From positions 101,632-165,631 of the forward strand of contig DATAXJ010000025.1 of the NCBI GenBank assembly GCA_036266795.1: a DNA stretch of 64,000 nucleotides, written 5' to 3'. The position numbers and the translations under genes were made by a program. The notes beneath the pieces were generated by a model that saw only the letters and a list, made by a program, of their open reading frames with translations, ran no database searches and was not told where the DNA came from. This document shows, one piece after another, positions 5,866 through 21,948 of this stretch; the stretch's first letter is position 1; every line of letters starts with the position of its first letter. The stretch comes from Steroidobacteraceae bacterium (GTDB lineage: Bacteria > Pseudomonadota > Gammaproteobacteria > Steroidobacterales > Steroidobacteraceae).

Positions 5866-6106
5866 AAGTCAGATTCCAGATGAGGTGCTGGACAAAGCAA
5901 AACAAGCGATTGTGCTGGATGATCTGAAACTGCATCTCCGAAGTTAGCAATATCGGAGAAGCAAACGGCTACGAACGGTTCGGAGAGAACAGATTGCGTG
6001 CCAATTTGCAACAGATCATGAACCAGGCCAGGAATTGGACGCACGCCCTGCCTCGCGCCGCTGAACCCATTCCGGCCAACGCCGCGGACGATTAACATGC
6101 GATGCC

Positions 6107-7687: not shown

Positions 7688-7716
7688 AGAGTGGTAGACT
7701 TCCGGGGCGCTGCCGT

Positions 7717-7875
7717 CTAGGGCACCTTAGTCCCCAAACTCCCTGCTGGATAAATCATGAACTCCAGGAGATTTCCGTCGGGGTCGCGGACGTAGACGCT
7801 GGAACCTGTGATCTGGCGGCCGCCTTGCCGTGCGACGGGTCCCAGCTCGATTTTGGCTCCCACTTTGTCCAGCAT
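7717..7875 (-). pseudogene. C-terminal fragment of a VOC/glyoxalase-family protein
   Basis: Own translation: MLDKVGAKIELGPVARQGGRQITGSSVYVRDPDGNLLEFMIYPAGSLGTKVP* (52 aa). The upstream frame is closed by a stop, so there is no N-terminal half. Confidence 0.4.
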
Positions 7876-7959
7876 GCCGCCTCGACCTCAGGTGCGCCCG
7901 GCTATTTCAGGATTGGCGCTTCAGCGCTGACAAGACGAATGCTCACTATGCCAGCGCGC

Positions 7960-10131
7960 TCAGTGACAGGTGAGTTTGCCGTCTTTGTACTCGCAGTCAT
8001 CGGGTGGGCCGTATCTCTCGTAATAGGGAAGCGCTCCACGGCGAGCAATGTACGCTTGAAATCGCGGATCCTCCCGAAACTTCCGCCACTCCGGCTGCCA
8101 CGGACACGATTCGCCACCGATTAATCCGGCGGGCGCCTCGTCAAGGCACTGATTTGCCAAAGCATACGCCGCGTCCAGGTCACCCAGCAGCACGTAGGCC
8201 CGCACGCCGTTGTAGCCGCATTGATCTGCCCCTTGCCGAGTCAGCGTGCGGCCCGGGGGATATAGCCGCGTGCGCGCTACCAGCGCCGCTGCCCGCTTGG
8301 TGGGGTTGCCGGGATCGGCAATTGCCGCCAGCACCAGCCGGTTCAGTTCCTGGGCCGGTGCGACGTCGGTTTCGGGTTGGTTGGGGCTGAGCAAGAAGCT
8401 GTCACGCAAGTACACGGCATACCGCCCGGCGCGTACCGATGCCAAACCACGGATGTCTCCCAATGTCGGGTTGTCTTTAGGCACACCGAGCGCCACTGCC
8501 AGTTGTTCGTAGTTGAGCGCCTCGCTGTCCAGGTCGGCCCACGAATGCACCGTGCCTGCAAACATCACCACCGTAGGGATGGCTGGCGCCAATGCGTAGG
8601 CTTCGCGCATTTCCTGCACCGCTTCGCGCATGTGCCCAAGGTAGGCTTGCACCTGCGCATGAGTGAACCGGAGCAAGGCGTCATTGGGATCCAGCATTTC
8701 GGCTTTCCGATCGTGTTCCTCGGCACCCACCATGTCGCGGCGCAGAAAGGCGATCACGCCCAGGTTAGACTCCGCCTGGGCGGAATTGGGATCGAGCTTC
8801 AGCGCGTGCTGGTCGGCTTGCTCGGCGGCGAGTATATGTGACTGCAAAGAGTCGTAGTGCCAGAGCGCCAGGTGCGCCGTCGCGATTCCGGCGTAGGCTC
8901 GAGCGTAGCTGGAGTCGCGAGCGATCGCTCGCTGGAAGAAATCCAGCGCGCTTTCGGCATCGGGCGTCCCCTCGTCGTTCAGCATCGCGAGCCCCTGCAA
9001 AGTCAGCCGGTACGCGCCTACGTCACGGGTCGGTGGCGCAATTACGACGGAGTCTGGCGGTCGTCCGCTCTTATCGACCTTCATCACGGTGAGGACTTCA
9101 TTGCTGACATCGTCATAAAGCTTGAACAGGTTCGCGAACTTCTCTTCGAAGTTCTGCGAGACGGTAACCTCGCCAGTGGCGCCATCGACAAGCTGCACGT
9201 TGACGCGCACCAAATCCCCTCCTTTTTGGACTGTTCCCTCCAGAATCTTGGCGACTCGAAGCTCACTCGCGATCTTTCTGACATCTTCCGCCCGACCCTT
9301 GTAGGCAAATGAGCTGGTTTTCGACCGCACCTGAAGGGCCGTCACCCTTGACAAGGAATTGATCAGCTCCTCCGCTATTCCATCACCCCAGTAGTCCAGG
9401 TCTTTCTCGCCCGTTTGGTTGTCGAACGGCAGCACCGCAATCGAGGCTTTCGCTATTGAGTCTGGCGTCGTCGCAGCACGAGATGCCCGGGCTGGTTTGA
9501 CTACCATGGCTGGCCCCTGAGAACCAGCCGCTCGGCTCGTTATAGAGGCAGGCGATTTCTGTGAGTTCCCGATGAGCCAAGCCGCGAGGCCGAGGGCAAC
9601 CGCGAGCACTGCGGCAGCGATCACCGTCACCCAGCGCCAGGGCCGTCCCGGGATGCGCCCTGCGCTCGGAGCGATCGGGCTGACAGGGGCGGCGGCCTCG
9701 ATCGCGGCGGCCTCGATCGCGGAGGCCTGGAGTTCGGTCGTCGGGAGCGCGAGCGCGGGGGGCATCTGGCCGCGCAAGTCCAGCTCGAGGTGTGAGTGCG
9801 GCACAACACGCACGGGAGCGATGAACTTGAAGCCCCGACCGGGTACGGTGAGGATGAAGCGGCGCTCGCCTGCCGTCTCGCCGAGCACCTTCCGCAAGGT
9901 CACGATGCACTGGTTGAGGTTGTTCTCCTCGACCACCGCTCGCGGCCAGACCGCTGCCATCAATGCGGACTTCTCGACGAGCTCTCCGGCGCGCCCTACA
10001 AGCTGCAACAGTACTTCGAAGGCCCTGGACGGCAGGGCTATCGGCACCCCCTCGCGCGACATCAGCACGTGCAATGCCGTGTCGAGGTGAAAGCCGCCGA
10101 ACTCGTAGTCTGGTGCGCTACTGTCGTCCAT
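7960..10131 (-). CDS. Membrane-anchored winged-helix (OmpR/CadC-type) transcriptional regulator with periplasmic TolB-like and TPR region
   Basis: 723 aa; N-terminal YEFGGFHLD...LLQLV...G.LV.K..L...VW......ENNLNQCIVTLRKVLGE...FI.TVPGRGFKF; one TM segment (WRWVTVIAAAVLAVALGLAAWLI); then IAVLPFDN... and TPR-like repeats. Confidence 0.8.
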   Translation of the reverse strand: MDDSSAPDYEFGGFHLDTALHVLMSREGVPIALPSRAFEVLLQLVGRAGELVEKSALMAAVWPRAVVEENNLNQCIVTLRKVLGETAGERRFILTVPGRGFKFIAPVRVVPHSHLELDLRGQMPPALALPTTELQASAIEAAAIEAAAPVSPIAPSAGRIPGRPWRWVTVIAAAVLAVALGLAAWLIGNSQKSPASITSRAAGSQGPAMVVKPARASRAATTPDSIAKASIAVLPFDNQTGEKDLDYWGDGIAEELINSLSRVTALQVRSKTSSFAYKGRAEDVRKIASELRVAKILEGTVQKGGDLVRVNVQLVDGATGEVTVSQNFEEKFANLFKLYDDVSNEVLTVMKVDKSGRPPDSVVIAPPTRDVGAYRLTLQGLAMLNDEGTPDAESALDFFQRAIARDSSYARAYAGIATAHLALWHYDSLQSHILAAEQADQHALKLDPNSAQAESNLGVIAFLRRDMVGAEEHDRKAEMLDPNDALLRFTHAQVQAYLGHMREAVQEMREAYALAPAIPTVVMFAGTVHSWADLDSEALNYEQLAVALGVPKDNPTLGDIRGLASVRAGRYAVYLRDSFLLSPNQPETDVAPAQELNRLVLAAIADPGNPTKRAAALVARTRLYPPGRTLTRQGADQCGYNGVRAYVLLGDLDAAYALANQCLDEAPAGLIGGESCPWQPEWRKFREDPRFQAYIARRGALPYYERYGPPDDCEYKDGKLTCH

Positions 10132-10146
10132 AGTCCGGGGCCGTTG

Positions 10147-10176
10147 AGGTCGTGCTCCAGCAGGTCGTGCTCTAGC
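10147..10176. repeat. Tandem 15-bp direct repeat AGGTCGTGCTC(C/T)AGC x2 just upstream of the CadC-like gene start
   Basis: 10147-10161 and 10162-10176 differ at one base. They lie in the divergent region between the regulator (start 10131) and the urcA-like gene. Confidence 0.6.
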
Positions 10177-10408
10177 CTATTGCCATTTTATCGAGGCGTA
10201 GACCCTTTGACGATCCTGGTAAGCCCTAGGGTTGTGCGGAGGACTCCGGGAGGCTGTTCGGCGCCTTCATACCGCGCCTCACAGATTCTCATAACGTCTC
10301 ACGGGCTCGCCCAAGCTTCCTCATAGCCAAAGCGTGAATCTCGCTTCACGCCGCGATCGGGAAATCCTTTCCCTCGAGGCGCTCGACACCACCAACCAGG
10401 AGATTCAC

Positions 10409-10753
10409 ATGAAAACCAAGCTCAACATGACCGTCGGCTTCACCGTTCTGGCAATCGCGCTCGCCTTCAGCAGCGGCGTGTTCGCAGAGAGCCCCAGCTT
10501 CGTCAATTCCGCCAGCAAGACCGTGCACTACCAGGACCTGAATCTATCCACCCCGAAAGGAATCCAGGTTCTGTATCGACGCCTCCAGGTTGTCGCCGCC
10601 TCGGAGTGTGCACAGGTGGCGAGCGACCCGTACTACGCCTACCTGGAATGCACCCAGGCTGCTATGGATGCCGCGGTCCGGGCGGTGGGCAACGCCGATC
10701 TTACCGCAATGCACCACGGAATGAAGCGCAGAGCGTTGGTTGCCGCTCGTTAG
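10409..10753 (+). CDS. UrcA family secreted protein
   Basis: Start chosen at MKTKLNMTVGF... (AGGAG 7-12 nt upstream). Signal peptide, then VHYQDLNLSTPKGIQVLYRRLQVVAASEC, typical of UrcA-like proteins. Confidence 0.7.
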   Translation: MKTKLNMTVGFTVLAIALAFSSGVFAESPSFVNSASKTVHYQDLNLSTPKGIQVLYRRLQVVAASECAQVASDPYYAYLECTQAAMDAAVRAVGNADLTAMHHGMKRRALVAAR

Positions 10754-10768
10754 AGTTCCACATTGTGC

Positions 10769-10804
10769 GACGGCGGGCGGCGGTAATGCTGCCCGCCGTC
10801 TTCT
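10769..10804 (+). terminator. GC-rich hairpin downstream of the urcA-like gene
   Basis: GACGGCGGGC (10769-10778) pairs with GCCCGCCGTC (10791-10800), 12-nt loop, followed by TTCTG. The T-tract is weak. Confidence 0.5.
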
Positions 10805-10875
10805 GCGTCCCCGCGCGGACCGGTGCGTTCGGTATCTCATCTTCTACGACGCCTTCTCGACCTCCGGTAACCCTC

Positions 10876-10958
10876 AGATTTAAACGACACCCCGCACGAG
10901 TGATCGGGGCAATACCCATCCGGATTCTTCGCCAGATACTGCTGGTGATAGTCGGCGC
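10876..10958 (-). repeat. msrA 3'-end copy A (truncated; putative original attB-derived gene end)
   Basis: Encodes ...[38 protein letters not shown]. The 46-bp core 10890-10935 is identical to 16972-17017 and 18751-18796. Confidence 0.85.
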
Positions 10959-11396: not shown

Positions 11397-12743
11397 ATGA
11401 AAATCGTGAATAGGGTTGTTCACGTCACGCAAAGCGATGCAGGGACGTGGTTGGAAAGAGTCGAACGGGCGCTCTGTGCAGCTTCACATTCGCACCGTTT
11501 GCCCGTGCGCTCCGCCATCTGCGAAGTCAATGATCGCGAGGCTCTGGCGGATGCGACCTTCGTGGAGTGGGATGCGGACGAACCGTGCGGCGAGCTGCTC
11601 GCTCGACTGCAGGTCAGCGCGCCGCGTCGTAAGTCCCACCAGGAAGGCAGGTTTGCCGTCGTGCAGATCGTTCCGACGGGCGTGCGCTGCGAGATCGGCG
11701 GCTTTGCCGGCGATGCCTGTCCGGCGACCAACCTGCTCGCGGCCAGCGCCGACTTACTGATCACTCACCCGAACGCCGTCAATGCTTCCGAGCTCAACGA
11801 GATGGCGGCCAACGTGCTGTATGTCGAAGGCAGGAGCCTCGACGATCTGATGCTCGGTCAGCTCGGGCTAGCCCCGAGTCGGGCCAATCGCATCGGCACG
11901 TTCATCGACCCAACTGGCGCGGCATACTTGGACGACGTCGTGCATGCGCTCAATGCTGCGCGTGCCACCGGCGGCATCGATTGTGGGCTTCACAGCGTCG
12001 GGCGCGAGGATTTCGGTGTCGCAATCGATTGGTCGGCGCATGGTTGTGCTGTCGGCACCGTACGGCACCCCGACGTCATCCTCGAAGTAGTCGGCCACCT
12101 GCTGAGCCAGGGCGCCGAGGCCATCGGCGGTGTATCCGTCATCCACGGCGTGAGTGCGCAGCAGTTCTCCAGCCACCTCGAAGGCAAGCTGCCCAACCCC
12201 TCCGGAGGCATCGAGGCCATCATCACGCACCTGATATCCAGGGTGTTTCGCATCCCCACGGCCCATGCGCCATTGCCGTACTATCAGGCAATCAAGCAGC
12301 GTGGCACGCACAATCCGCGCGCCTCGGCGGAGTTCATCTCGACTCCGCATTACTTTTGCGTTCTCAAGGGGCTGGCACGCGCTCCGCGGCTGGTGCCCCT
12401 GGAGGACCTGCAGCGCGTCCCCAGCCATCTGATCAGTCTCAACAACGTCGGCGCCGTGGTAGCGCCCGCATCCTGCCTTGGGGGCACTGCGGTGCTGGCC
12501 GCCGACTTCAACGCGATCCCCATCATCGCGGTCCGGGAAAACGGTTCGGTCCTGGACGTCTCGAACGAGCGCATGGGCCTGCGAAACGTCATCGAGGTGG
12601 CCTCCTATCCCGAGGCGGCGGGCGTCGTGCTGGCCTTGCGCAAAGGCATATCGCTGGAAAGCGTACGCCGTCCCCTGGGTCGCGCGCTGCACGCGGATAT
12701 TGCGTCCGTGGCACACCTGTGGGGAGCTGCTGCCGCGCTGTGA
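11397..12743 (+). CDS. DUF3326-like protein (function unknown), translationally coupled to the NRPS
   Basis: 448 aa; motifs VQIVPTGVRCEIGGFAGDA and LITHPNAVNASELNEM match my recollection of DUF3326. Alternative start GTG 11661 (GGAAGG upstream) would give about 360 aa, the usual family length. Stop TGA 12741-12743 overlaps the NRPS GTG at 12740. Confidence 0.65.
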   Translation: MKIVNRVVHVTQSDAGTWLERVERALCAASHSHRLPVRSAICEVNDREALADATFVEWDADEPCGELLARLQVSAPRRKSHQEGRFAVVQIVPTGVRCEIGGFAGDACPATNLLAASADLLITHPNAVNASELNEMAANVLYVEGRSLDDLMLGQLGLAPSRANRIGTFIDPTGAAYLDDVVHALNAARATGGIDCGLHSVGREDFGVAIDWSAHGCAVGTVRHPDVILEVVGHLLSQGAEAIGGVSVIHGVSAQQFSSHLEGKLPNPSGGIEAIITHLISRVFRIPTAHAPLPYYQAIKQRGTHNPRASAEFISTPHYFCVLKGLARAPRLVPLEDLQRVPSHLISLNNVGAVVAPASCLGGTAVLAADFNAIPIIAVRENGSVLDVSNERMGLRNVIEVASYPEAAGVVLALRKGISLESVRRPLGRALHADIASVAHLWGAAAAL

Positions 12744-15700
12744 CCGTGACGCCGGAGAGTGCTTCGCCAGCGGCGGTTGATGAGCTGTTGGCGCGGTCCA
12801 ACCTGACAGCGCGGCAACTGCTGATCTACGCCGGCCAACGGCTCAGCCCCGACATCCTGTTGTACGATGCAGTCTATGCGGTGAGCTGGCCGGACCTGGC
12901 GCTGCCGCGTTTTCGTTTGGCGTGGCAGCAGCTACTCGACACGTGCGATGCCCTGCGGACCATCGTCGAGGAAGTCGATGGCATCCCGCGGCAGCGCGTA
13001 CTCAACCCCTACCCTTTGGAGGTCGAATACGTCGAGCTTCCACGGGCCGAGGGCAGCGACGCACCGCTCGAGTGCTACCTGCAGTCCCGCCTGGAGCGCC
13101 CGCTGGTCCTGCAACAACGCGCGTTCGACACCGCCGTAATCCGCACCTCGGCGCACCAGCATGTCTGGTATCTGAACCTGCACCATGTCATTGCCGATGC
13201 CGCGGCCGCCGAGCTGCTGATCGAGCGGCTGTACCGAATCTACCACGAGGAACCGGGTGCACTCGCGCTCGCGCCACTGCCGTCGTTCATGGACCAGGTT
13301 GCCCGGCGACGCTCCGCGCTCACCGATGCCACCCACCGCGATGACACATGCTATTGGCGACAGCGACTCGCCGGTCTGCCCGCGCCCACGCCGCCCTACG
13401 GAATCACTGCGATCGGAGCCCGCCAGGAACGCGTGCTGATCCAGCTCGACGAGCAACGCGGTCGCGCCATCGCGGCGCTCGCACGCACCATGTTCGGCGA
13501 CGGCCTTGGGGAGCACGCCGCTGCCTCCAATCTGTTCTGCGCGGCGTTTGCCATGTTTCTTACTCGCGTCAGCGGCAGCCGACAGGTCACGATCGGCTCG
13601 ACTGCCCACAACCGCCGCAACGAGACCGAGCGACGGACGATCGGACTGCTGATGGAGGTGCTACCGCTCGCGCTGACGCTGGATGCCGAGGACGGCCTCG
13701 CGCAAGTCATGCGCCAAGCCGCCAGCGTGACGCGCGAGGCGCTGCATCATCGCGGCTACAGCGTGCCCAATTCGAGCCGCAGCCCCCACTATCTGGCGCT
13801 GATCAACTATATGCGTCCGCTGGTGACGACCCCGCCCGGACTGACCGTACGACGCATCCATCCAGGCCATGGGGCACACGCGCTGGCACTGAGCATTTCC
13901 CCGCCCCGCGAGGGTCACGCGTGGCAGCTGTGGCTCGACGTGAATGCCATCCTGGCGCAAAGTATCGGAGCGGAGCGAATCGCAGCGCAGTTCCGCATGT
14001 TGCTCGAGGCCGCGGTGGCTGACCCTCAGCGGTCTCTGGCATGCCTTCCCCTGCTCGCAGCCGGCGAAGTACACCGTATCCGTAGCCTGTGCTACGGCCC
14101 GCACCTGGCGGCCGGATTACGCGAGTGCGGCTGCCATAAGGCGTTCGAGCTTCAGGTGACTCGCAGGCCCGAGGCCACTGCCGTGGCTTTCGGAGGGGGT
14201 ACGGAGAGCTACACCCAGCTAAACCGGCGCGCCAATCGCTTGGCCCATGAGCTGATGGGCCGGGGTATCGGCCGTGGCGCGCTGGTTGGCATTCATCTGG
14301 AACGCTCGCTGGAGATGATCGTCGCGGTGCTGGCGGTGCTGAAGAGCGGCGCCGCCTATCTGCCGCTCGATCCGGCCTATCCGGCCACGCGGCTGCAGCA
14401 CATGCTGGAAGAGACCGACGCCGCAATCATCATCACGGATCAAACTCTGGCGGCTCAGCTCACTCCAGCGGCCAGGCCCATACTGCTACTGCCGCTGCCT
14501 GAAACCGCGTCGCTGGATGTTGCCGATCCCGGCGTGAATATACGTCGAGCGGATCCGGCGTACGTCATGTACACGTCGGGCTCCACGGGCACACCCAAGG
14601 GTGTCATGGTCACGCACGGTGGCGTCGTGAACTACCTCGAGTGGCGCAACAGTTACTTCCCGCTCACGCCTACCGACCGGTGTCTGCATAAGGCGTCGTT
14701 GAGCTTCGACGACTCGGTCTGGGAGATACTCGAGCCTCTGGGAGCCGGTGCATGCATCGTCCTGGCACGCCCGCACTTCGAATACGACGGCGCCTATCTG
14801 GCCGCGCTGATGGCGGGGCAACAGGTGAGCGCGGCGTGTCTCGTGCCCACGCTGCTGCGCGCCTTCATCGAGGAGCCGCAGACAGCATCCTGCGTCTCGC
14901 TGCGCCGCCTGACCACGGGAGGCGAGACACTCAGCGTGGCACTGCAGCGGCGCGTACTCGAGCGGCTGCCTTCTGTGAAACTCTACAACGGCTACGGCGC
15001 CACCGAGACCACGATCGCATCCTCGTTCTGGCAGTGTGCGGATGATCGGCGGGCGTCGGTGCCCATCGGCCGGCCCATCGCCAACACCACGATCTACGTC
15101 CTGGATGATGCTGGACAGCTGCTGCCGATCGGCGTGCCAGGCGAGCTGTATGTCGGCGGTGCCGGTGTGGCCGCCGGCTATCTGCGCCAGCCGGCGCTGA
15201 CCGCGGCGCGCTTCACCGCCGCAACCGCGGCCGCGCCCGGCGAGCGCCTGTATCGGACCGGTGATCGCGGACGGTTGCGCGACGATGGTGTGTTGGAATT
15301 TCTCGGGCGGGTCGACGAGCAGGTCAAGATCAACGGCGTACGTGTCGAACCGGGTGAAGTGGAAGCCCACCTGTTGAGCCATGCGCTGGTGCGCGCCGCG
15401 GCGGTCGTCTGTCATGAACCGCAGCCCGGGAGCAAGCGGTTGGTGGCGTACGTCGTACCGGCGCATGCCAGCGCCCTCTCGGCCGCAGAGCTGCGCCGTT
15501 ACCTGCGCACCTGCCTGTCACCCTCGCTGGTTCCTGGCCGCTATGTGCTGATCGACGCATTGCCGAGCACTCCGAGCGGCAAGCTCGACCGCAACGCCCT
15601 TGCGACTGCAACGGCATCGCTGCCCGAGCTGACCGCCAGCGTTGACCCGCGTGACGCCATCGAGCGGCAGCTACTGGAAATCTGGCAGGCGATGCTCGAT

Positions 15701-16666
15701 GTGCGCCCCATCGGCGTCCAAGATGACTTTTTCGACCTCGGTGGCCACTCGTTGCTGGCCGTGCAGCTGGCCGCGGCGATCGCCCGGCAGTTCAAGCGTC
15801 ATCTGCCGCCGGGATTGCTATTCGAGGCACCGACCATCGAGGCGCTCGCGCTGCGTCTGGCCGCACCGCAATCGAGCACCACGCCCTCAATCCTGGTAAA
15901 GCTCCGGGCCGAGGGCGATCGGGTGCCGCTCTTCTGCATCCATCACGTGCGCGGCAACGTCAATTGCTATCGTGAGCTGACGGATCTGCTCGTAACGGAG
16001 CAACCGGTGTATGGCCTCGAAGTCAGCGGCGGCGCAGTTGCTGACGGTGTCACCATCGAGACGCTCGCAGCCCGGTACGTCGAGGAAGTGCTCGCATGCC
16101 AGCCAGTCGGGCCGTATGCCATCGCCGGCTACTCGGCCGGTGGATTGATCGCCTACGAGATGGCGCGTCTGCTGGTGGCGAGAGAGCGAACGGTGGCACT
16201 GCTGGCTATCCTGGATACCGATGCGGGCACCCGCGCCAGGCGCGTCGTGATCGATCCGCTGCGTTTTCACCTCGATAATCTCGCGCGCCTTGGGCCTCTG
16301 GAGGCCATAGGCTATCTCTGGCACAAGATCTGCGCCCGTTGGCGCACACGCGCCGGCGCCGCAAAACCTGCAGCGCCGGCTGACACGCCAGGCGATCCGC
16401 TGATGGCAGCGTTGGACCACGCCGTCGAGCGCTACCGTCCACGGGAATACGCCGGCGGCGTCATGCTGTTTCGCGCCACCGATCGACGAGTCACACGCAC
16501 CTACGCCCGGACACTTGGGTGGCGTGCACTGGCCGGCGGCGGCGTTCGCGTCATCGACATCCCCGGCGACCACCGCACCATCGTGCAGACTGGCCCCGTG
16601 CGTATGCTCTCGAGCCGACTCAGTGAGTGCCTTGCCCGGATCAATGCATCTTCGACGCCGACTTAG
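12740..16666 (+). CDS. Single-module non-ribosomal peptide synthetase, C-A-T-TE
   Basis: C domain with HHVIADA (13181-13201). A domain with YVMYTSGSTGTPKGV, SFDDSVWE, NGYGATETT, YRTGDRGR..DG.LEFLGRVDEQVKINGVRVEPGEVE, PSGKLDR. PCP FFDLGGHSLLAVQL (Ser codon 15749-15751). TE GYSAGG (Ser 16133-16135) and GDHRTI. The first 253 codons of ORF 11981..16666 overlap the DUF3326-like gene and were rejected. Confidence 0.9.
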   Translation: MTVTPESASPAAVDELLARSNLTARQLLIYAGQRLSPDILLYDAVYAVSWPDLALPRFRLAWQQLLDTCDALRTIVEEVDGIPRQRVLNPYPLEVEYVELPRAEGSDAPLECYLQSRLERPLVLQQRAFDTAVIRTSAHQHVWYLNLHHVIADAAAAELLIERLYRIYHEEPGALALAPLPSFMDQVARRRSALTDATHRDDTCYWRQRLAGLPAPTPPYGITAIGARQERVLIQLDEQRGRAIAALARTMFGDGLGEHAAASNLFCAAFAMFLTRVSGSRQVTIGSTAHNRRNETERRTIGLLMEVLPLALTLDAEDGLAQVMRQAASVTREALHHRGYSVPNSSRSPHYLALINYMRPLVTTPPGLTVRRIHPGHGAHALALSISPPREGHAWQLWLDVNAILAQSIGAERIAAQFRMLLEAAVADPQRSLACLPLLAAGEVHRIRSLCYGPHLAAGLRECGCHKAFELQVTRRPEATAVAFGGGTESYTQLNRRANRLAHELMGRGIGRGALVGIHLERSLEMIVAVLAVLKSGAAYLPLDPAYPATRLQHMLEETDAAIIITDQTLAAQLTPAARPILLLPLPETASLDVADPGVNIRRADPAYVMYTSGSTGTPKGVMVTHGGVVNYLEWRNSYFPLTPTDRCLHKASLSFDDSVWEILEPLGAGACIVLARPHFEYDGAYLAALMAGQQVSAACLVPTLLRAFIEEPQTASCVSLRRLTTGGETLSVALQRRVLERLPSVKLYNGYGATETTIASSFWQCADDRRASVPIGRPIANTTIYVLDDAGQLLPIGVPGELYVGGAGVAAGYLRQPALTAARFTAATAAAPGERLYRTGDRGRLRDDGVLEFLGRVDEQVKINGVRVEPGEVEAHLLSHALVRAAAVVCHEPQPGSKRLVAYVVPAHASALSAAELRRYLRTCLSPSLVPGRYVLIDALPSTPSGKLDRNALATATASLPELTASVDPRDAIERQLLEIWQAMLDVRPIGVQDDFFDLGGHSLLAVQLAAAIARQFKRHLPPGLLFEAPTIEALALRLAAPQSSTTPSILVKLRAEGDRVPLFCIHHVRGNVNCYRELTDLLVTEQPVYGLEVSGGAVADGVTIETLAARYVEEVLACQPVGPYAIAGYSAGGLIAYEMARLLVARERTVALLAILDTDAGTRARRVVIDPLRFHLDNLARLGPLEAIGYLWHKICARWRTRAGAAKPAAPADTPGDPLMAALDHAVERYRPREYAGGVMLFRATDRRVTRTYARTLGWRALAGGGVRVIDIPGDHRTIVQTGPVRMLSSRLSECLARINASSTPT

Positions 16667-16754
16667 GTCTTCGCTGCGCCGACCGCCAACGGTCAGCGTC
16701 TAGCTGAAAAAGTCGGGACGCTGCGTACGGCCAGCAGGTTCCTAAAGGGACGCG

Positions 16755-16838
16755 CGGGAGCCGCAAAGCCCAAAGACCTGATCAAGTATCTCTGGCGGGC
16801 ACCGCACCCTTGCGTACCCTTCGACGGCATGATGACAT
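16755..16838 (+). pseudogene. Remnant of an RHH/HicB-like antitoxin 3' end (paralogous to 17615..17860)
   Basis: Translates ...RAGAAKPKDLIKYLWRAPHPCVPFDGMMT, compared with ...RAGTAKPKDLLKYLRRVPKVAPLDDDRT of the intact antitoxin. No upstream coding part. Confidence 0.45.
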
Positions 16839-16927
16839 CACCGCCGCCAGAACTGCGTCCCGTTTCTCCTATACGCCCAGCATTCTTCCCCGCGGACTTC
16901 CCGCCCGAACCCTCGCTGTAACGATGA

Positions 16928-17040
16928 CTACGTCTTCTCCCCCGGCTCCAACTCCGCGGATTTGAAGCTGACCCCGCACGAGTGATCGGGGCAATACCCA
17001 TCCGGATTCTTCGCCAGGTAATGCTGGTGATAGTCGGCGC
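16928..17040 (-). repeat. msrA 3'-end copy B (truncated, chimeric)
   Basis: Encodes ...[36 protein letters not shown]. The stop-proximal half resembles copy C; the inner boundary (GTGATAGTCGGCGC) resembles copy A. Confidence 0.9.
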
Positions 17041-17160
17041 TGAGGCCGGAAATGCCACGTAACCCACGCCGTTATATCCTCGTAGTCGCCGATCGGTCGA
17101 CTTCCAGTAGACGCTGGGGGGCGCTCGAATCGGTAGAGCGGCGCCCACATCTCATAGAGG

Positions 17161-17189
17161 TTGACATCCTATACGATGTCACATAACAT
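17161..17189 (+). promoter_or_regulatory. Candidate sigma70 promoter with embedded inverted repeat (possible TA operator)
   Basis: TTGACA (17161-17166), 17-bp spacer, TAACAT (17184-17189). IR GACATC/GATGTC at 17163-17168 and 17175-17180. The GTG start at 17196 lies only 7 nt from the -10, so the mRNA may be leaderless. Confidence 0.45.
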
Positions 17190-17195
17190 TTTCGA

Positions 17196-17618
17196 GTGCG
17201 GGTCGTACTCGATACATCCGTGGTCATCGCAGGACTGAGGAGTCGCCTCGGCGCGAGCAATCAGGTCTTGGTCGCGGTCGCGGAACAACGTTGCACCCCG
17301 CTGGTGACTACCGCTTTATTCCTGGAGTACGAAGCGGTGCTGCTGCGACCTGAGCATCAGCTCGCGACCGGTTTGAATCCTTCCGATATAGAGGGATTCC
17401 TAGCGGCGCTGGCGAGCGCTGCCGAGCCCGTTGAAATCAACTTCCTGTGGCGCCCGCAGCTTCGGGATCCGGCTGATGAGCTGGTACTCGAGGCCGCGGT
17501 GAACGGAAAAGCCAGCGCCATTGTGACGCATAACGTCAAGGACTTCAGATCCGGGGCGGAACGATTTGGGGTTGCGACGTTGACTCCTGCGGAATTACTG
17601 AAGGAGCTCCGAAAGTGA
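17196..17618 (+). CDS. PIN-domain toxin (putative type II TA toxin component, PIN family)
   Basis: 140 aa; VVLDTSVVIAG (acidic D), ...LEYEAVL..., DPADELVLEAAVNGKASAIVTHNVKDF. Confidence 0.8.
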   Translation: MRVVLDTSVVIAGLRSRLGASNQVLVAVAEQRCTPLVTTALFLEYEAVLLRPEHQLATGLNPSDIEGFLAALASAAEPVEINFLWRPQLRDPADELVLEAAVNGKASAIVTHNVKDFRSGAERFGVATLTPAELLKELRK

Positions 17619-17860
17619 GCAAGAGTACCTATCCTTTGAAACTTCCCAATTCCATTAAGAATGCAGCGGCAGAGCTCGCGAAGGCAGACGGCGTGTCACT
17701 CAATCAGTTCATTGCGGCTGCGGTCGCGGAGAAGGTAGGCTCGTTGCAGACGGCGCAAATATTTCTAGAGCAGCGAGCAGGCACAGCAAAGCCTAAGGAC
17801 CTTCTCAAGTATCTGAGACGCGTGCCCAAGGTGGCTCCGCTGGACGATGACCGGACTTAG
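17615..17860 (+). CDS. RHH / HicB-like antitoxin
   Basis: 81 aa; YPLKLPNSIKNAAAELAKADGVSLNQFIAAAVAEKV. GTGA overlap with the toxin stop (17615-17618). Confidence 0.7.
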   Translation: MSKSTYPLKLPNSIKNAAAELAKADGVSLNQFIAAAVAEKVGSLQTAQIFLEQRAGTAKPKDLLKYLRRVPKVAPLDDDRT

Positions 17861-17956
17861 GTCTTCACAGCGCGCGGGAACGCTCAGGGTCTGGGCTCGT
17901 GGGCGGTTGGTCCGACGTGCTATCCGCGACGTCGTGCTCTGCCCGCCTGCGGTCCT

Positions 17957-18193
17957 CTACAGGAGACGATCAGCTAACGTCCCGGTCCATAAACGGCCAT
18001 CGCTCGTGAACTCGAGCGTTAGCGTTTCCCTTACGCCAGCTTCTTCCTTGACATACGATATGATCGCGTAACCCATGGGGTGCGTCTTTGGTGACCTCGG
18101 GTGATTAAACGACTCTCGTGTGACCGCAAAAAACTCGATTCGTTCCGCGTGCCTATCTTCCGTCCAGCTGGGCCCGAATATTCGAACCAACAA
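17957..18193 (-). CDS. Hypothetical protein (may be the shifted C-terminal part of the 18153..18491 ORF)
   Basis: 78-aa ORF overlapping the upstream ORF by 41 nt in another frame. No recognisable motif. Confidence 0.25.
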   Translation of the reverse strand: MLVRIFGPSWTEDRHAERIEFFAVTRESFNHPRSPKTHPMGYAIISYVKEEAGVRETLTLEFTSDGRLWTGTLADRLL

Positions 18194-18491
18194 TCGGCGG
18201 CCCGCCTCGGTTCACCGGATCATAATTCACCAAATGGATGACTTCCTGCTTGAGCTTATCCCGATCCGGAAGCGCAGACCGTGTAACGCTGTCTGCATGA
18301 AAGTAGCGCTTAAGGCCGCCGCTTGTCGCATAGAAGGTTGGATCCATGAGGACGTCGCTCCGGAAGACGGTATCGATAACCTCCAAGACGTCGAGAGCAG
18401 TTTTCTGGGTCGGGGCCGCTGCAAACCCGACGTGGCATCCGATGACCAATGCCAATGCGACGAATATCGTCCTTGCTTTTACTTTCATCAT
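18153..18491 (-). CDS. Hypothetical small secreted protein
   Basis: Start taken at MMKVKARTIFVALALVIGCHVGFAAAP (signal peptide). The longer ORF to 18773 reads through the msrA repeat in the wrong frame. Confidence 0.45.
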   Translation of the reverse strand: MMKVKARTIFVALALVIGCHVGFAAAPTQKTALDVLEVIDTVFRSDVLMDPTFYATSGGLKRYFHADSVTRSALPDRDKLKQEVIHLVNYDPVNRGGPPIVGSNIRAQLDGR

Positions 18492-18706
18492 ATTGACCGG
18501 GCAACGGGGCTCTGCCACCGAGGAATTGTGTACTCCTCGGCGACATTCTTTCCCCGCGGAATATCCTAAGCCCGAACCATCGGTAGACTTCCGGTAGACT
18601 TCAGCGCCGAAAACACCCGCCATTTTCCTGCAGAATTCCGCGGGGTCTTCCATTCCCCAGCACGTAACTCTTTGTCTCCCGGCAGGAAACAGAGTAACAC
18701 GAGCCC

Positions 18707-18815
18707 TTACACCTTCTCCCCCAGCTCCAACTCCGCGGATTTGAAGCTGACCCCGCACGAGTGATCGGGGCAATACCCATCCGGATTCTTCGCCAGGTAC
18801 TGCTGGTGATAATCC
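18707..18815 (-). repeat. msrA 3'-end copy C (part of the intact gene)
   Basis: Same segment as copies A and B; 46-bp identical core at 18751-18796. Confidence 0.9.
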
Positions 18816-19300
18816 TCCGCGTAGAAGAATGGCGGAGCCGGCCGAATCTCCGTGGTGATCTGACCGTAGCCAGCCTTGGTCAGCGCTCTTTGGAATTCCT
18901 TGCGCGACTGTTCCGCCGCCTGCTGCTGCGCCTCACCGTCGGTATAGATCAGCGAGCGGTACTGGCTGCCGATGTCATTGCCCTGACGCATCCCCTGCGT
19001 CGGATCGTGTGATTCCCAGAACACCTTGAGAAGCTGCTCATAGGTAACGCGTTTCGGGTCATAAATCACCAGCACCACCTCGGCGTGTCCGGTGGTATTG
19101 CTGCACACCTGTCGATAGGTGGGATTCGGCGTATGCCCGCCGGCGTAGCCGACGGCGGTGGCGTACACGCCAGGCATTTCCCAGAACTGCTTCTCCGCGC
19201 CCCAGAAGCAGCCCATGCCGAAAACGGCGCGCTCGAGGCCCGGTGGAAAAGGCGGCTGAATGCGCTGGCCATTGACAAAATGTGTTTCCGGAATCTGCAT
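18707..19300 (-). CDS. msrA: Peptide-methionine (S)-S-oxide reductase
   Basis: Start at MQIPETHF... (GAGGAG 6 nt upstream); [13 protein letters not shown] active-site motif; ...[37 protein letters not shown]. Confidence 0.9.
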
Positions 19301-19377
19301 GTACTGCTCCTCGCGACCGCAGGGGCCGCGTTCTCCAGGCGCCTTCAATCCCTTCGATGTTGCGCTAAACTTCACCC

Positions 19378-19647
19378 ATGAACGCGATCTGTCAGCCCCA
19401 CAACCTGCGTCGGCCCATTTTCCAGGGCCCCAAGCCCTACGGCGTGCGCGTCAGTCTTCGCCCTGGCGATCCATTCCGCAAGATCATGGGGGCGGATTGG
19501 CACCGCAGCCATTGGTACCCTAGCGCCGCCGAACGCGACGCAGCGCTGGCGGACATGAGTCGTAAGCACGAGTACTCGCGCGTCGGCGACAGGCCGGCAC
19601 TGCTGTTCGAAAAGATCGAAAACCTCGCGGTCAGCCACGGCGTCTGA
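19378..19647 (+). CDS. Conserved-looking small hypothetical protein
   Basis: 89 aa; high GC3; ...[43 protein letters not shown]... No family assigned. Confidence 0.5.
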
Positions 19648-19662
19648 CCCCGACGCCGGCGA

Positions 19663-21948
19663 TCAGAACGAATGCCCGAGGTACAGGTAGAACGCCGTGC
19701 TGCCGCTCTGGTCGTAGCCCATCGCGAGATATGCGGGTCCGAGATAGGTGTCGGCTGCCACGAACAGTGAGAAGTCGGTGCGCAGCGCGCTGAAGTGCAT
19801 CTGGCTGCGCTGGTTCCAGACGTTGCCGGATTCGAGCGAGGCACCGATATAGGCGGGCACGTCCAGGATGCCCTCTCCGCCGTTGCCGACCTTGTGCAGA
19901 TAGATGAGCCGTCCGATGGCATATTGGGGGCCGGCCAGCGTATCGGCTCGCACGCCCGATAAATTGAGAAAGCCGCCGAGCGGGAAGTAATCGCGAATGG
20001 CGGTCTGGCTGCCGCCGGCGGTCATGCCACCGGAAACCCAGGTAACCAAGGTGTTGCGAGCCCAGGAGTGCACCCCGCGCCAGTCGACGGTGGCGACATC
20101 CGCACCCTCCCCCGCCCCGCGGCTCTCGACCGTAAGCTGGGTAGTCAGCGCCTGCCCGGAGCGCGCGAAGCTCGGGCTGTCCCGATCATCGAAGCCGAAG
20201 CGCACGAAGTACTGCTCCACGTCGAAATTTGCGCCAGGGGCGTTGAAGTCGCCGAGACTCACGCGCTCGCTGCCGTTATCGGTCACCGCGCCCATGCGAA
20301 TCTCGCCCCAGTTGCCCAGCGCGCGCCCCAGATCCAGCCCGGCATGTACGCTGCGTACCAGGTATTCGCCCACGTGTCGGCCGTCTTCCACCTGCGCGAT
20401 CTGGTACTGCCCAATGTCCGCATGCGGATCGACGAAGTACTGCGTGACATTGGATAGCGGCTGATAAAACTCCGTCGACAGCAGCGGCGCCGTCCCCACC
20501 TGCAGCACCGAGTCCCACTCGGCGCCCAGGGAATTGAGCTCGGTGACATCCAGCCGTCCGGCCGCGTCGAAGCTGGTATCGCCTTCGAAGTCGTCCTGCA
20601 TGTCCATCCCGAGCCGCAGATAATTCGGTCCCCAGGAGTTGCGCAGCGCCGTGAAATCCAGCCCATATTGGTCGCCGGGACCCTGCTGCAACTGGTAGTC
20701 GAGTGTCTCCAGGTAACCACGGCCGTAGAGCAGCTGGATCTGCTGCTGCAGCGCCTGCGCGTCGAGCATTTGACCGCTGAAGCGGTCGAACATGTCATGG
20801 ATCTGGCGGTTGTAAGCCGTGGAATCCGGATCCACACGCACGAAGCTCACCTTGGGCGGTGGCGCTCGCACGGCGCGGCGCGCATCGAGATAGCGCGCAT
20901 ACTCGGCGTCCGAAACCGACAACGCGCGCAGCTGTTTCTCCATGGCCGCCGCGGCGCTTTCCCCCGCGCTGACGATCTTCAGAGTGTCGGCAAAGTCGTA
21001 GGAAGAGTAATTGCCGAGCTGTGGACTGATGAGCAGGTCGTGGGCGCCGAGGCTTGCAAGCTCCCGACGGACATTTCGCCGCAGCAGAATCGCCAGCACC
21101 TGGTTGGTGATACCCGGCAGCGAAACGAGCCCCTTGCGCGACTGCAGTGGATAGCCGGCATCCACGACGATCAAAACATCGACGTTCATTGCCCGCGCGA
21201 CGTCGATCGGCAGGTTGTCGACCAACCCTCCATCCACGAGCACCTGCCCATGGTATTCGACCGGTGCAAACACGCCGGGAACGGACACGCTGGCGCGCAT
21301 GGCGGTCGCAAGGTCGCCGCCGGCCAGCACGCTCGCCTCGCCGTTCTCCAGGTTGGTCGCGACGGCGCGAAAATGCGTCGGCAGGCGGTCAAAATCGGTG
21401 ATGCGCGCCACTGGCAGAGTGAGGGCGCGTAGCGTCTCGGTGAACTTCTGGCTCTGGATGAGTCCGCGGGGGATCACGAGCTTGCGGCCCTGCAGTCCCA
21501 GCGGAAGATTGACCAGATACTGTTCTTCCTCCTGCTTGCGGCGATAATCCAGCGCTGCCAGTGGCGGACGATCGCGAAACGCCGCCTGCCAGTCGACCGA
21601 GCCCATCGCCTGTGCAATCTCACGCCCGGACAGGCCACTCGCGTAGAGGCCACCCACCACGGCACCCATGCTGGTGCCGGCGATCGCGTCGATCGGTACG
21701 TGCAACCGATCGAGCATCTCCAGCACCCCGATGTGCGCCGCCCCGCGTGCACCACCCCCCGAGAGCACCAGGCCGATGCGCAGGCGCCGTGGCTGCGGGG
21801 ACACGGTGGTGCTCGCCGAGGGCGCGGGCGTCAGCGGCGGCGCGAGGGTTGATGAAGGCGGGACGGAACTGGTCGGGGGCAGCTGCGCGACCGCGGCGGC
21901 AGACGAAAGCAGGCACACCGCCAGCGTGATGAGTCTGGGTTTATGCAT
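19663..21948 (-). CDS. Patatin-like phospholipase fused to POTRA and an Omp85-type beta-barrel (type Vd secretion, PlpD-like)
   Basis: 761 aa; signal peptide, GLVLSGGGARGAAHIGV, GTSMGAVVGG (GxSxG), DGG...N.P, C-terminal barrel ending ...YLYLGHSF. Confidence 0.85.
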   Translation of the reverse strand: MHKPRLITLAVCLLSSAAAVAQLPPTSSVPPSSTLAPPLTPAPSASTTVSPQPRRLRIGLVLSGGGARGAAHIGVLEMLDRLHVPIDAIAGTSMGAVVGGLYASGLSGREIAQAMGSVDWQAAFRDRPPLAALDYRRKQEEEQYLVNLPLGLQGRKLVIPRGLIQSQKFTETLRALTLPVARITDFDRLPTHFRAVATNLENGEASVLAGGDLATAMRASVSVPGVFAPVEYHGQVLVDGGLVDNLPIDVARAMNVDVLIVVDAGYPLQSRKGLVSLPGITNQVLAILLRRNVRRELASLGAHDLLISPQLGNYSSYDFADTLKIVSAGESAAAAMEKQLRALSVSDAEYARYLDARRAVRAPPPKVSFVRVDPDSTAYNRQIHDMFDRFSGQMLDAQALQQQIQLLYGRGYLETLDYQLQQGPGDQYGLDFTALRNSWGPNYLRLGMDMQDDFEGDTSFDAAGRLDVTELNSLGAEWDSVLQVGTAPLLSTEFYQPLSNVTQYFVDPHADIGQYQIAQVEDGRHVGEYLVRSVHAGLDLGRALGNWGEIRMGAVTDNGSERVSLGDFNAPGANFDVEQYFVRFGFDDRDSPSFARSGQALTTQLTVESRGAGEGADVATVDWRGVHSWARNTLVTWVSGGMTAGGSQTAIRDYFPLGGFLNLSGVRADTLAGPQYAIGRLIYLHKVGNGGEGILDVPAYIGASLESGNVWNQRSQMHFSALRTDFSLFVAADTYLGPAYLAMGYDQSGSTAFYLYLGHSF

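What the first reader, a model, noticed from the sequence alone, without database searches (positions are those of the whole stretch)
11397..16666. Orphan two-gene cluster: DUF3326-like protein translationally coupled to a single-module C-A-T-TE NRPS
Directly visible:
- The 448-aa ORF carries IVPTG-x5-GGFAGDA and ITHPNAVNAS motifs, which I associate with the uncharacterised DUF3326 family.
- Its stop overlaps the start of a roughly 1308-aa NRPS (GTGA at 12740-12743).
- The NRPS has an apparently active N-terminal condensation domain (HHVIADA), a complete adenylation domain, a PCP (GGHSL) and a thioesterase (GYSAGG).

No upstream carrier protein, MbtH-like protein, PPTase, transporter, regulator or tailoring enzyme lies next to it.

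Inference: a module that begins with a C domain needs a donor delivered in trans, as EntF does. The only co-transcribed candidate to make or present that donor is the DUF3326-like protein. That would give this domain of unknown function its first biosynthetic context.

The first specificity-pocket residues read from SFDDSVWE would be D-D-W, which I cannot match to a familiar code.
Basis: partly seen in the sequence, partly recalled or inferred. Interest (0 to 1): 0.85.

Follow-up and report, generated by a model that had tools for sequence, protein, structure and literature searches.

The report
DUF3326 enzyme paired with dedicated NRPS
An enzyme of unknown function (DUF3326) and a one-module peptide synthetase form a two-gene unit that recurs across many bacterial phyla, always with the same unusual substrate pocket, so the unknown enzyme most likely makes the odd amino acid that the synthetase loads.

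Summary
ORF 11397-12743 is a strong Pfam DUF3326 match. Its stop overlaps the GTG start (GTGA) of a 1308-aa C-A-T-TE NRPS, and no other NRPS, PPTase or MbtH gene lies in the window.

The pair is not a chance neighbour:
- In 47 species-level genomes carrying a close DUF3326 homologue (54-67% identity, about ten phyla), 23 have an NRPS A domain directly beside it.
- 21 of those carry the code DDWCTGGIAK or a near variant.
- In the reverse test, 25 of 28 metagenomic A domains with this motif have DUF3326 immediately upstream.

Close relatives keep DUF3326 and the same A code but lack the C domain (A-T-TE, A-T), and C domains elsewhere are unrelated. The window's C domain resembles starter C domains, which take acyl-CoA.

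The conserved core is therefore DUF3326 plus A(DDW)-T. DUF3326 most likely supplies the A-domain substrate. More distant DUF3326 genes sit next to NspC-like decarboxylases or are fused to AdoMetDC-type ones, and PavB (DUF3326) is needed for a polyamine. This points to an amino acid with a side-chain amine.

The chemistry is inferred, not shown. The "first biosynthetic context" claim is pre-empted by a June 2026 preprint.

The parts
11397..12743 (+). DUF3326-family enzyme gene, 448 aa including the conserved N-terminal extension
   Evidence: Pfam PF11805 at E 3.1e-84. The start at 11397 is supported by the conserved N-terminus M-x-I-x-N...WL...YPLR in 39 homologues. The public annotation (P0001, 412 aa) starts 36 codons later.
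11397..11657 (+). About 87-aa N-terminal beta-alpha-beta-beta extension preceding the Pfam domain
   Evidence: Conserved across the close clade. AF2 secondary structure is E2-11, H18-29, E34-44, E48-57. It is also present in many more distant 'long' DUF3326 proteins. Its function is unknown.
11667..11717 (+). Gly-rich loop IVPTGVRCEIGGFAGDA, a candidate ligand- or cofactor-binding loop
   Evidence: P93, T94, G95, G101, G102, G105 and D106 are invariant or nearly so across the whole family. It lies between strand 87-90 and helix 104-117 and has low pLDDT at 96-103. A binding role is inferred.
12740..16666 (+). Single-module NRPS gene, C-A-T-TE, 1308 aa. The GTG start overlaps the DUF3326 stop (GTGA 12740-12743).
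12800..14080 (+). Condensation domain of starter-like type, with HHVIADA at 13181-13201
   Evidence: Pfam Condensation at E 1.5e-38. The best PDB matches are RzmA-Cs 7C1K/7C1H (E 1e-18), PvdL C1 and CDA-C1. HHxxxD is kept in all C-A-T-TE orthologues.
14144..15583 (+). Adenylation domain with specificity code DDWCTGGIAK (SFDDSVWE at 14702-14725; A10 Lys in PSGKLDR at 15572-15592)
   Evidence: Pfam AMP-binding at E 4.7e-90 plus AMP-binding_C. Code from the GrsA alignment. The code is conserved in DUF3326-adjacent modules across phyla.
15668..15850 (+). Thiolation (PCP) domain; phosphopantetheine Ser1004 in GGHSL (15740-15754)
   Evidence: Pfam PP-binding at E 1.1e-15; motif located.
15926..16594 (+). 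Type I thioesterase domain; Ser1132 in GYSAGG (16127-16144) and His in PGDH (16562-16573)
   Evidence: Pfam Thioesterase at E 6.1e-25; motifs located.

Best explanation
The two genes are a self-contained, horizontally mobile biosynthetic cassette. Its conserved core is the DUF3326 enzyme plus an A-T didomain whose pocket (DDWCTGGIAK) has co-evolved with it.

Proposed steps:
1. Inferred: the DUF3326 enzyme makes a non-proteinogenic amino acid from primary metabolites. The most likely product carries an extra, possibly N-alkylated, side-chain amine. That would be a diamino acid or 'carboxy-polyamine' of the kind CASDH makes in polyamine synthesis.
2. Shown by homology: the A domain adenylates it and loads it on Ser1004 of the T domain.
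3. Inferred from C-domain similarity: the N-terminal starter-type C domain N-acylates the tethered amino acid, using an acyl-CoA or acyl carrier from general metabolism.
4. Shown by homology for the domain, inferred for the outcome: the TE releases the product by hydrolysis, or by lactam formation through the side-chain amine.

The product would be a small N-acyl derivative of an unusual amino acid.
For: Coupling of the pair:
- The genes overlap by 4 nt.
- The pair recurs in three unrelated flanking contexts.
- In the GTDB scan of 47 close-clade genomes spanning about ten phyla, 23 have an A domain beside DUF3326: 21 with DDW codes and 2 with VDW. Two further loci break off inside an NRPS.
- In the reverse scan, 25 of 28 FDDSVWEI-encoding A domains with enough upstream DNA have DUF3326 directly upstream.

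The core is A-T, not C:
- A-T-TE and A-T variants have the same code.
- Identity to the window is 44-63% for A domains, against 21-26% for the C domains that precede DDW A domains in the multi-module lines.
- DUF3326 is embedded in multi-module lines next to the DDW module.

The product is a free acid, not a T-bound species:
- NRPS-less close-clade genes sit beside other carboxylate-amine ligases. These are CapK/PaaK-like, DdaF-like ATP-grasp in an operon with a 2OG oxygenase, and cyanophycin-synthetase-like ATP-grasp.

Amine or polyamine-type chemistry:
- Distant DUF3326 genes follow an NspC-like PLP decarboxylase (5 loci; 230 bits, full length) or an AdoMet_dc-family gene (4 loci).
- P0145 is an AdoMet_dc-DUF3326 fusion.
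- SpeD homologues cluster with polyamine chain-extension enzymes (PMC10407285).
- PavA (decarboxylase) and PavB (DUF3326) are both needed for N-(5-aminopentyl)cadaverine.
- The pocket has a second Asp at position 236 and small residues at 301 and 322.

Acyl donor for the C domain:
- In L026 and L028 the cassette carries its own oxalate-CoA-ligase-like A-T in front of C-A(DDW)-T-TE.
- The window's C domain is closest to starter C domains.
Against: - No enzymatic activity is known for any DUF3326 protein.
- The AF2 model (pLDDT 81) has no significant match to any solved structure (best Foldseek E 1.8e-3), and profile searches find no PDB or Pfam relative. The chemistry therefore rests on gene context alone.
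- I could not run an NRPS specificity predictor. 'Unknown code' rests on my recollection of published codes and one empty literature search.
- About 14 of the 47 close-clade genomes show no recognisable ligase next to DUF3326.
- Three DDW A domains lack an adjacent DUF3326: L095, L112 and L138.
- The decarboxylase-linked clades are only 33-42% identical to this protein, so their chemistry may differ.
- The starter-C assignment rests on ranking of modest E-values (1e-18), not on a phylogeny.
Confidence: 0.5

Rival explanations
1. One reading: DUF3326 makes or presents the acyl or aminoacyl donor that the N-terminal C domain condenses onto the T-bound amino acid, playing the role EntB/EntE play for EntF.
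For: The module begins with an apparently active C domain (HHVIADA). No other candidate donor gene is in the window. The genes are translationally coupled.
Against: C-less A-T-TE and A-T partners keep DUF3326 and the same A code. C domains in front of DDW modules are unrelated across lineages. DUF3326 has no PP-binding domain. Where a donor-activating unit is encoded (L026, L028), it is a separate ANL-T didomain and not DUF3326. The window's C domain resembles starter C domains, which use acyl-CoA.
Confidence: 0.07
2. DUF3326 is an in-trans tailoring enzyme that modifies an ordinary amino acid after it is loaded on the T domain, as beta-hydroxylases or halogenases do in other NRPS systems.
For: DUF3326 is tightly adjacent to A-T in every architecture. 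In some loci a PPTase or MbtH gene lies next to DUF3326.
Against: Close-clade DUF3326 genes also pair with T-less ligases (CapK-like, ATP-grasp) and, in distant clades, with decarboxylases that act on free amino acids. The A code matches no common amino-acid code that I know.
Confidence: 0.12
3. DUF3326 makes an amine (a polyamine) that serves as the nucleophile to off-load the acyl or aminoacyl thioester, through the TE or C domain as VibH does with norspermidine. The product would be an amino-acid-polyamine amide.
For: DUF3326 has polyamine-type contexts elsewhere. All partner enzymes form amides.
Against: No decarboxylase accompanies the NRPS-linked clade, so a CASDH-like step would stop at the carboxylated amino acid. 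The element that strictly co-varies with DUF3326 is the A-domain pocket, not the TE or C domain, and both of those can be absent.
Confidence: 0.12
4. DUF3326 acts after release, for example by cyclising, isomerising or otherwise maturing the NRPS product, or it confers self-protection.
For: Gene order alone cannot exclude it.
Against: DUF3326 is also found inside multi-module lines, where the DDW residue is internal. It also pairs with A-T proteins that release nothing. An unusual, invariant A code is hard to explain this way.
Confidence: 0.07
5. Chance adjacency of a housekeeping DUF3326 gene and an unrelated NRPS.
For: About half of the close-clade genomes have no NRPS beside DUF3326.
Against: The genes overlap by 4 nt. 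The same pairing occurs in unrelated contexts and phyla. The reverse association is 25 of 28.
Confidence: 0.01

Closest known systems
EntF-type termination modules (C-A-T-TE), such as enterobactin synthase component F
   Same: Identical domain order, a single module, and a C domain that needs a donor delivered in trans.
   Different: Scores far below the EntF equivalog cut-off (435 against 2400 bits). No aryl carrier protein, DHB-AMP ligase or MbtH gene is present. The A code is DDWCTGGIAK, not a Ser code. The C domain is closer to starter C domains than to EntF's.
Lipoinitiation by starter condensation (Cs) domains (RzmA, PvdL C1, CDA PS-I)
   Same: These are the best solved-structure relatives of the window's C domain. 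It is the first domain of the line, with no upstream T domain.
   Different: Similarity is modest (E 1e-18). The motif is HHVIADA rather than HHxxxDG. The acyl donor is unknown. Those systems are multi-module lipopeptide lines.
Dedicated building-block enzymes in NRPS clusters (for example SbnA/SbnB or VioB/VioK for 2,3-diaminopropionate); named from my own knowledge
   Same: A small enzyme set encoded beside the module that loads its product; the same logic is proposed here.
   Different: DUF3326 is unrelated in sequence to any of them and to any solved structure. The product is unknown.
CASDH/CASDC (carboxy(nor)spermidine dehydrogenase and NspC decarboxylase) polyamine pathway
   Same: Distant DUF3326 genes occupy the position next to an NspC-like decarboxylase, where CASDH normally sits. 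This is the same two-step logic that would explain the joint requirement for PavA and PavB.
   Different: DUF3326 is not a saccharopine-dehydrogenase-family protein. In the window no decarboxylase is present, and an NRPS takes its place.
pavABC pavettamine cluster (PavB is a DUF3326 protein)
   Same: The only published biosynthetic role for a DUF3326 protein. It is required with PavA to form a secondary-amine polyamine.
   Different: No Rieske/decarboxylase (PavA) or JmjC (PavC) genes are present here. The partner is an NRPS. PavB's own reaction is also unknown.
Stand-alone A-T-TE enzymes such as MysE of shinorine biosynthesis; from my own knowledge
   Same: The sister cassettes (L005-L007, L023) have exactly this architecture.
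   Different: The context is different (no mycosporine genes) and so is the A code.

Membership tests
Pfam DUF3326 (PF11805) | HMM score above the gathering threshold over the whole domain | tested here: met
   283.3 bits against a cut-off of 25; residues 88-423 match profile positions 2-336 of 337.
Pfam DUF3326 (PF11805) | Family-wide invariant residues present (PTG...GG.AGDA, PN..N, E273, H290, E312) | tested here: met
   Alignment of 45 diverse members; all invariant columns are kept in the window protein.
Modular NRPS termination module (C-A-T-TE) | All four domains present above their Pfam thresholds, in order | tested here: met
   Condensation 133 bits, AMP-binding 303, AMP-binding_C 46, PP-binding 58, Thioesterase 89.
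Modular NRPS termination module (C-A-T-TE) | Catalytic motifs: HHxxxD, the A10 Lys, the Ser of GGxS, and the TE GxSxG plus His | tested here: met
   HHVIADA 148-154, PSGK948, GGHS1004, GYS1132AG and PGDH1278. The TE Asp was not located.
EntF / aryl-capped siderophore module | NCBIfam EntF equivalog score, plus a neighbouring aryl carrier protein, aryl-AMP ligase and MbtH | tested here: not met
   434.7 bits against a cut-off of 2400. None of these genes is in the window.
Starter (Cs) condensation domain | Groups with characterised Cs domains rather than with LCL or DCL domains | tested here: inconclusive
   The top PDB hits are RzmA-Cs, PvdL C1 and CDA-C1, but E-values are only 1e-18 to 1e-12 and no subtype phylogeny or NaPDoS run was possible.
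Starter (Cs) condensation domain | First domain of the assembly line, with no upstream T domain | tested here: met
   The C domain begins at residue ~20 of the only NRPS gene in 64 kb.
CASDH/CANSDH (carboxy(nor)spermidine dehydrogenase) | Saccharopine-dehydrogenase-family sequence | tested here: not met
   Only PF11805 matches, even at E <= 10 across 45 family members. Any relationship would be functional analogy only.
CASDH/CANSDH (carboxy(nor)spermidine dehydrogenase) | Encoded next to a CASDC/NspC decarboxylase | tested here: not met
   Not so in the window. It is met only for distant DUF3326 clades: L057, L058, L062, L066 and L068.
CASDH/CANSDH (carboxy(nor)spermidine dehydrogenase) | NADPH-dependent reductive condensation of an amino-aldehyde with an amine | not testable with these tools
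   Needs an enzyme assay.
pavABC-type polyamine cluster | DUF3326 gene flanked by a PavA-like Rieske/decarboxylase gene and a PavC-like JmjC gene | tested here: not met
   The neighbours are unrelated.

The most novel reading that the evidence does not exclude
DUF3326 is a structurally unprecedented C-N bond-forming enzyme, a non-homologous functional analogue of carboxy(nor)spermidine dehydrogenase. It builds amino acids with N-alkylated side-chain amines.

In decarboxylase-linked clades, and perhaps in cyanobacteria and plastids, this would be an unrecognised polyamine route. In the NRPS-linked clade the same intermediate would be captured by a dedicated A domain (xDW pocket). That would give a new class of small N-acyl 'carboxy-polyamine' metabolites or lactams, spread by horizontal transfer across about ten phyla.
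Probability: 0.3. Interest if true: 0.85.

Novelty: new variant of a known kind. Interest (0 to 1): 0.62.

Why it matters
DUF3326 is an uncharacterised family found across many bacterial phyla here (about 900 clusters at 50% identity). From my recollection of its Pfam description, it also occurs in plants. It has no solved structure, no detectable relatives, and only one published genetic role, which is very recent.

This cassette offers the simplest experimental handle on it. Two genes suffice. The A domain acts as a built-in 'reader' of the DUF3326 product. Natural variants (C-A-T-TE, A-T-TE, A-T, and forms with their own acyl-activating unit) separate the steps.

If the polyamine-type reading holds, it would link NRPS building-block supply with polyamine biosynthesis and define a new A-domain specificity code. 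For genome mining, DUF3326 plus FDDSVWE is a ready marker for an unexplored, widely transferred small-molecule family in soil bacteria.

Tried and rejected
- Two-cysteine racemase idea (invariant C98 and C217 in the close clade, weak Foldseek hit to arylmalonate decarboxylase): rejected. C98 is not conserved family-wide and the fold hit is insignificant.
- Recollected resemblance of the GG.AGDA motif to the PlsX, PTA or glycine-reductase families: no support. No secondary Pfam hit recurred even at E <= 10 over 45 members.
- Sequence and profile searches of the PDB with the protein, with A1 and with A2: nothing meaningful.
- Foldseek against the PDB: best E 1.8e-3. The hits are only partial flavodoxin-like or Rossmann-like sub-domain matches (lumazine synthase, GT-B, LacI).
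- N-terminal extension as an MbtH-like or carrier domain: no Pfam hit, and it also occurs in NRPS-less clades.
- Promoter and terminator scan: no more sites than in shuffles.
- Rfam and tRNA scans of the window: empty.
- Literature searches for DDWCTGGIAK, PF11805 and the beta-alanine codes: no hits. My recollection that V235/D236 codes mark beta-amino-acid A domains is therefore uncited.
- Trinickia and Paraburkholderia DUF3326 loci: the neighbours are convergent 2-oxoacid dehydrogenase and acyl-CoA genes, judged unrelated.
- Crude ORF calling failed in several high-GC loci. These were rechecked by tblastn or by hand.
Full report
**What is there.** It matches Pfam DUF3326 (PF11805) at E 3.1e-84 over residues 88-423 and matches no NCBIfam model. 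An alignment with 39 homologues shows that the ~87 residues before the Pfam domain are conserved from the first Met (M-x-I-x-N...WL...YPLR). The start at 11397 is therefore right, and the public 412-aa annotation (P0001, Steroidobacteraceae MAG) is too short. The TGA overlaps GTG 12740 (GTGA), which opens a 1308-aa NRPS with Condensation, AMP-binding, AMP-binding_C, PP-binding and Thioesterase domains. Catalytic motifs are intact: HHVIADA, PSGK948, GGHS1004L, GYS1132AGG and PGDH. Alignment to GrsA-PheA reproduces DAWTIAAICK for the reference, which validates my recalled sequence, and gives DDWCTGGIAK for the window.

**Orphan status.** Neighbouring ORFs are unrelated: a Trans_reg_C regulator on the other strand, a PIN gene, MsrA, a patatin gene and several ORFs without Pfam hits. 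tblastn with a PPTase, an MbtH protein and the NRPS itself finds nothing else in the 64 kb.

**Is the pairing real? Forward direction.** Three close homologues (64-67% identity) looked up in assemblies are each followed by a C-A-T-TE gene, with completely different flanking genes. A scan of one genome per GTDB species returned 72 loci. Forty-seven carry a close homologue (54-67% identity, with the N-terminal extension). They come from Steroidobacterales and other Gammaproteobacteria, Burkholderiales, Alphaproteobacteria, Binatia, Acidimicrobiia, Thermoleophilia, Anaerolineae, Cyanobacteria, Nitrospirota, Acidobacteriota, Myxococcota, Desulfobacterota, Verrucomicrobiota and Planctomycetota. That breadth at such identity implies horizontal transfer. 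In 23 of the 47 an NRPS A domain lies directly beside DUF3326, and in two more the contig ends inside an NRPS.

**Is the pairing real? Reverse direction.** I scanned metagenome contigs for DNA encoding FDDSVWEI. Thirty-six of the 63 matches lie in an A domain. Of the 28 with enough upstream sequence, 25 have DUF3326 immediately upstream. The association holds in both directions.

**What co-varies with DUF3326.** The A-domain code next to DUF3326 is DDWCTGGIAK, or a variant at one to three positions (DDWSTGGIAK, DDWCTGGISK, DDWCTGGIGK, DDWCLTGIAK, DDWFVTGVAK), in 21 genomes. It is VDWDVTLIAK in two. This holds whatever the architecture:
- C-A-T-TE, as in the window.
- A-T-TE with no C domain (L005, L006, L007, L023). 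In L006/L078 this overlaps DUF3326 by 4 nt, with an Sfp-type PPTase divergently upstream.
- A-T alone (L024).
- C-A-T modules inside multi-module lines (L012-L015, L018, L041; L077 with MbtH).

A domains with DDW or VDW codes are 44-63% identical to the window's, and every other A domain in these loci is at most 43.6% identical. C domains are 43-49% identical only in the Steroidobacterales-type cassettes, 30% in L017, and 21-26% elsewhere, where the motif is a different one (MHHIVFDGWSE). The conserved unit is DUF3326 plus A(DDW)-T, and the C and TE domains are interchangeable accessories.

**The C domain.** Searched alone against the PDB, it is closest to RzmA-Cs (7C1K/7C1H, E 1e-18), the first C domain of PvdL, and CDA-C1. 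PMC7804268 confirms that 7C1H is a starter condensation domain. From my own knowledge, PvdL C1 and CDA-C1 are also lipoinitiating. Such domains take acyl-CoA or an acyl carrier from general metabolism, so the absence of a donor gene is not a puzzle.

In Bryobacterales (L026, L028) the cassette carries its own donor unit between DUF3326 and C-A(DDW)-T-TE. It is a 590-aa ANL enzyme plus T domain, most similar to oxalate-CoA ligases (5IE0, E 5e-119).

**What DUF3326 might do: context within the close clade.** Close-clade genes without an NRPS sit beside other carboxylate-amine ligases:
- A CapK/PaaK-type adenylating enzyme (L011/L076, and by clustering L036 and L046).
- An operon of 2OG oxygenase, DdaF-like ATP-grasp ligase (288 bits), an unknown 360-aa protein and DUF3326 (L022).
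- A truncated cyanophycin-synthetase-like ATP-grasp with methyltransferases in Synechococcus and Cyanobium (L042, L047).

These partners have no carrier domain, so DUF3326 probably acts on a free small molecule.

**What DUF3326 might do: context in distant clades.**
- In clades of 33-42% identity, the gene immediately upstream on the same strand is a PLP decarboxylase best matching carboxynorspermidine decarboxylase NspC (230 bits, full length, against 75 for LysA) in five loci. In four loci it is an AdoMet_dc-family gene.
- In Planctomycetota the two decarboxylase types occupy the same slot (L055 and L058).
- One representative, P0145, is an AdoMet_dc-DUF3326 fusion.
- SpeD homologues, including neofunctionalised Orn/Arg decarboxylases, are known to cluster with polyamine chain-extension enzymes (SpeE, CASDH/CASDC, HSS, SpeY) (PMC10407285). 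DUF3326 sits where those enzymes normally sit.
- In the pavettamine cluster, PavA (with a decarboxylase domain) and PavB (DUF3326) are both required for N-(5-aminopentyl)cadaverine, although cadaverine is present in all strains.

**Reading of that context.** The simplest reading of all these contexts is that DUF3326 forms a side-chain C-N bond and gives an amino acid with an extra amine, as in the CASDH-like 'carboxy-polyamine' logic. A decarboxylase then turns that amino acid into a polyamine, or a ligase or NRPS turns it into an amide. The pocket fits loosely. It has a second Asp at position 236 and Gly at 301 and 322. In the VDW variants Asp235 is lost while Asp236 is kept, which I recall is typical of beta-amino-acid-activating domains; I found no citation for this. 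All of this is inference.

**Structure.** The AF2 model (pLDDT 81, pTM 0.85) shows a small N-terminal beta-alpha-beta-beta unit followed by alternating strands and helices of alpha/beta type. The two most conserved loops (96-103 and 299-314) are of low confidence. Foldseek finds no significant PDB match. Sequence and profile searches of the PDB and permissive Pfam scans find no relatives. The family has about 900 clusters at 50% identity.

**Exceptions and limits.**
- About 14 of the 47 close-clade genomes show no obvious partner.
- Three DDW A domains lack an adjacent DUF3326. In one of them (L112) an Fe-dependent alcohol dehydrogenase occupies its place. This is a single case, noted as a lead towards redox chemistry.
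- I could not run NRPS specificity or C-subtype predictors.
- No product is known.

**Verdict.** The proposed donor role for DUF3326 is not supported. The better-supported model is that DUF3326 supplies the unusual substrate of a co-evolved A domain. The N-acylation and release steps are inferred from domain homology.

The link between DUF3326 and NRPSs appears undescribed: only three papers in the searched library mention the family. A biosynthetic role for DUF3326 was, however, reported in June 2026. I rate it a new variant of a known kind, with interest 0.62.

Noticed in passing
window 11397-11504: The public annotation of this gene (P0001, 412 aa) starts 36 codons downstream of the ATG at 11397. 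The alignment shows the N-terminus is conserved from the first Met, so the deposited model is truncated.
   Followed up: yes
L026 9356-11125 and L028 9354-11126: In Bryobacterales the cassette has an extra ANL-plus-T protein between DUF3326 and C-A(DDW)-T-TE. It is most similar to oxalate-CoA ligases (5IE0, E 5e-119), which suggests a small dicarboxylate as the acyl donor there.
   Followed up: partly
P0145 (562 aa; from the representative search): A natural fusion of an AdoMet_dc-family pyruvoyl decarboxylase domain (residues 10-124) with DUF3326 (residues 215-548).
   Followed up: partly
L058 6596-7783, and the equivalent genes in L057, L062, L066 and L068: NspC-like (carboxynorspermidine decarboxylase-like) PLP decarboxylase directly upstream of distant DUF3326 genes. 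I did not test whether a CASDH gene is absent from those genomes.
   Followed up: partly
L112 11231-12541 (minus strand): An iron-dependent alcohol dehydrogenase family gene sits 21 nt upstream of an A-T-TE gene with code DDWCSGGIAK, in the place DUF3326 normally occupies. It may be a non-homologous replacement. This is a single case.
   Followed up: partly
L022 4716-9299: Operon of 2OG-Fe(II) oxygenase, DdaF-like ATP-grasp ligase, an unknown 360-aa protein and DUF3326, with a divergent A-T-reductase NRPS (code DVAAMGAVAK). From my own knowledge it is reminiscent of the dapdiamide toolkit, without recognisable DAP synthase genes.
   Followed up: partly
L042 and L047 (Synechococcus sp. 1G10, Cyanobium MAG): The close-clade DUF3326 gene is flanked by SAM methyltransferase genes and a convergent truncated cyanophycin-synthetase-like ATP-grasp gene.
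   Followed up: no
L044 about 5378-10908: The DUF3326 gene appears to be interrupted. Only residues 1-345 match at 8001-9035. Two near-identical long ORFs flank the break, and one of them ends in the C-terminal DUF3326 sequence. This looks like a mobile-element insertion or an inversion.
   Followed up: no
window 17161-17860: A PIN_3-domain gene (17196-17618) is preceded by the best sigma-70-like match in the region (TTGACA-17-TAACAT, 17161-17189) and overlapped by an 81-aa ORF (17615-17860). It may be a toxin-antitoxin pair.
   Followed up: no
window 4001-8000 and 16001-20000: The DNA flanking the cassette has lower GC (0.57-0.62) than the cassette (0.66) and most of the window (0.64-0.69).
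   Followed up: no
L033 3069-4838 and L045 5913-7682: A conserved 589-aa protein with no Pfam or NCBIfam hit lies directly downstream of close-clade DUF3326 genes in Actinomycetota MAGs. By eye only, it contains a TAGRDSR stretch that resembles the PP-loop of asparagine-synthetase-like enzymes.
   Followed up: partly
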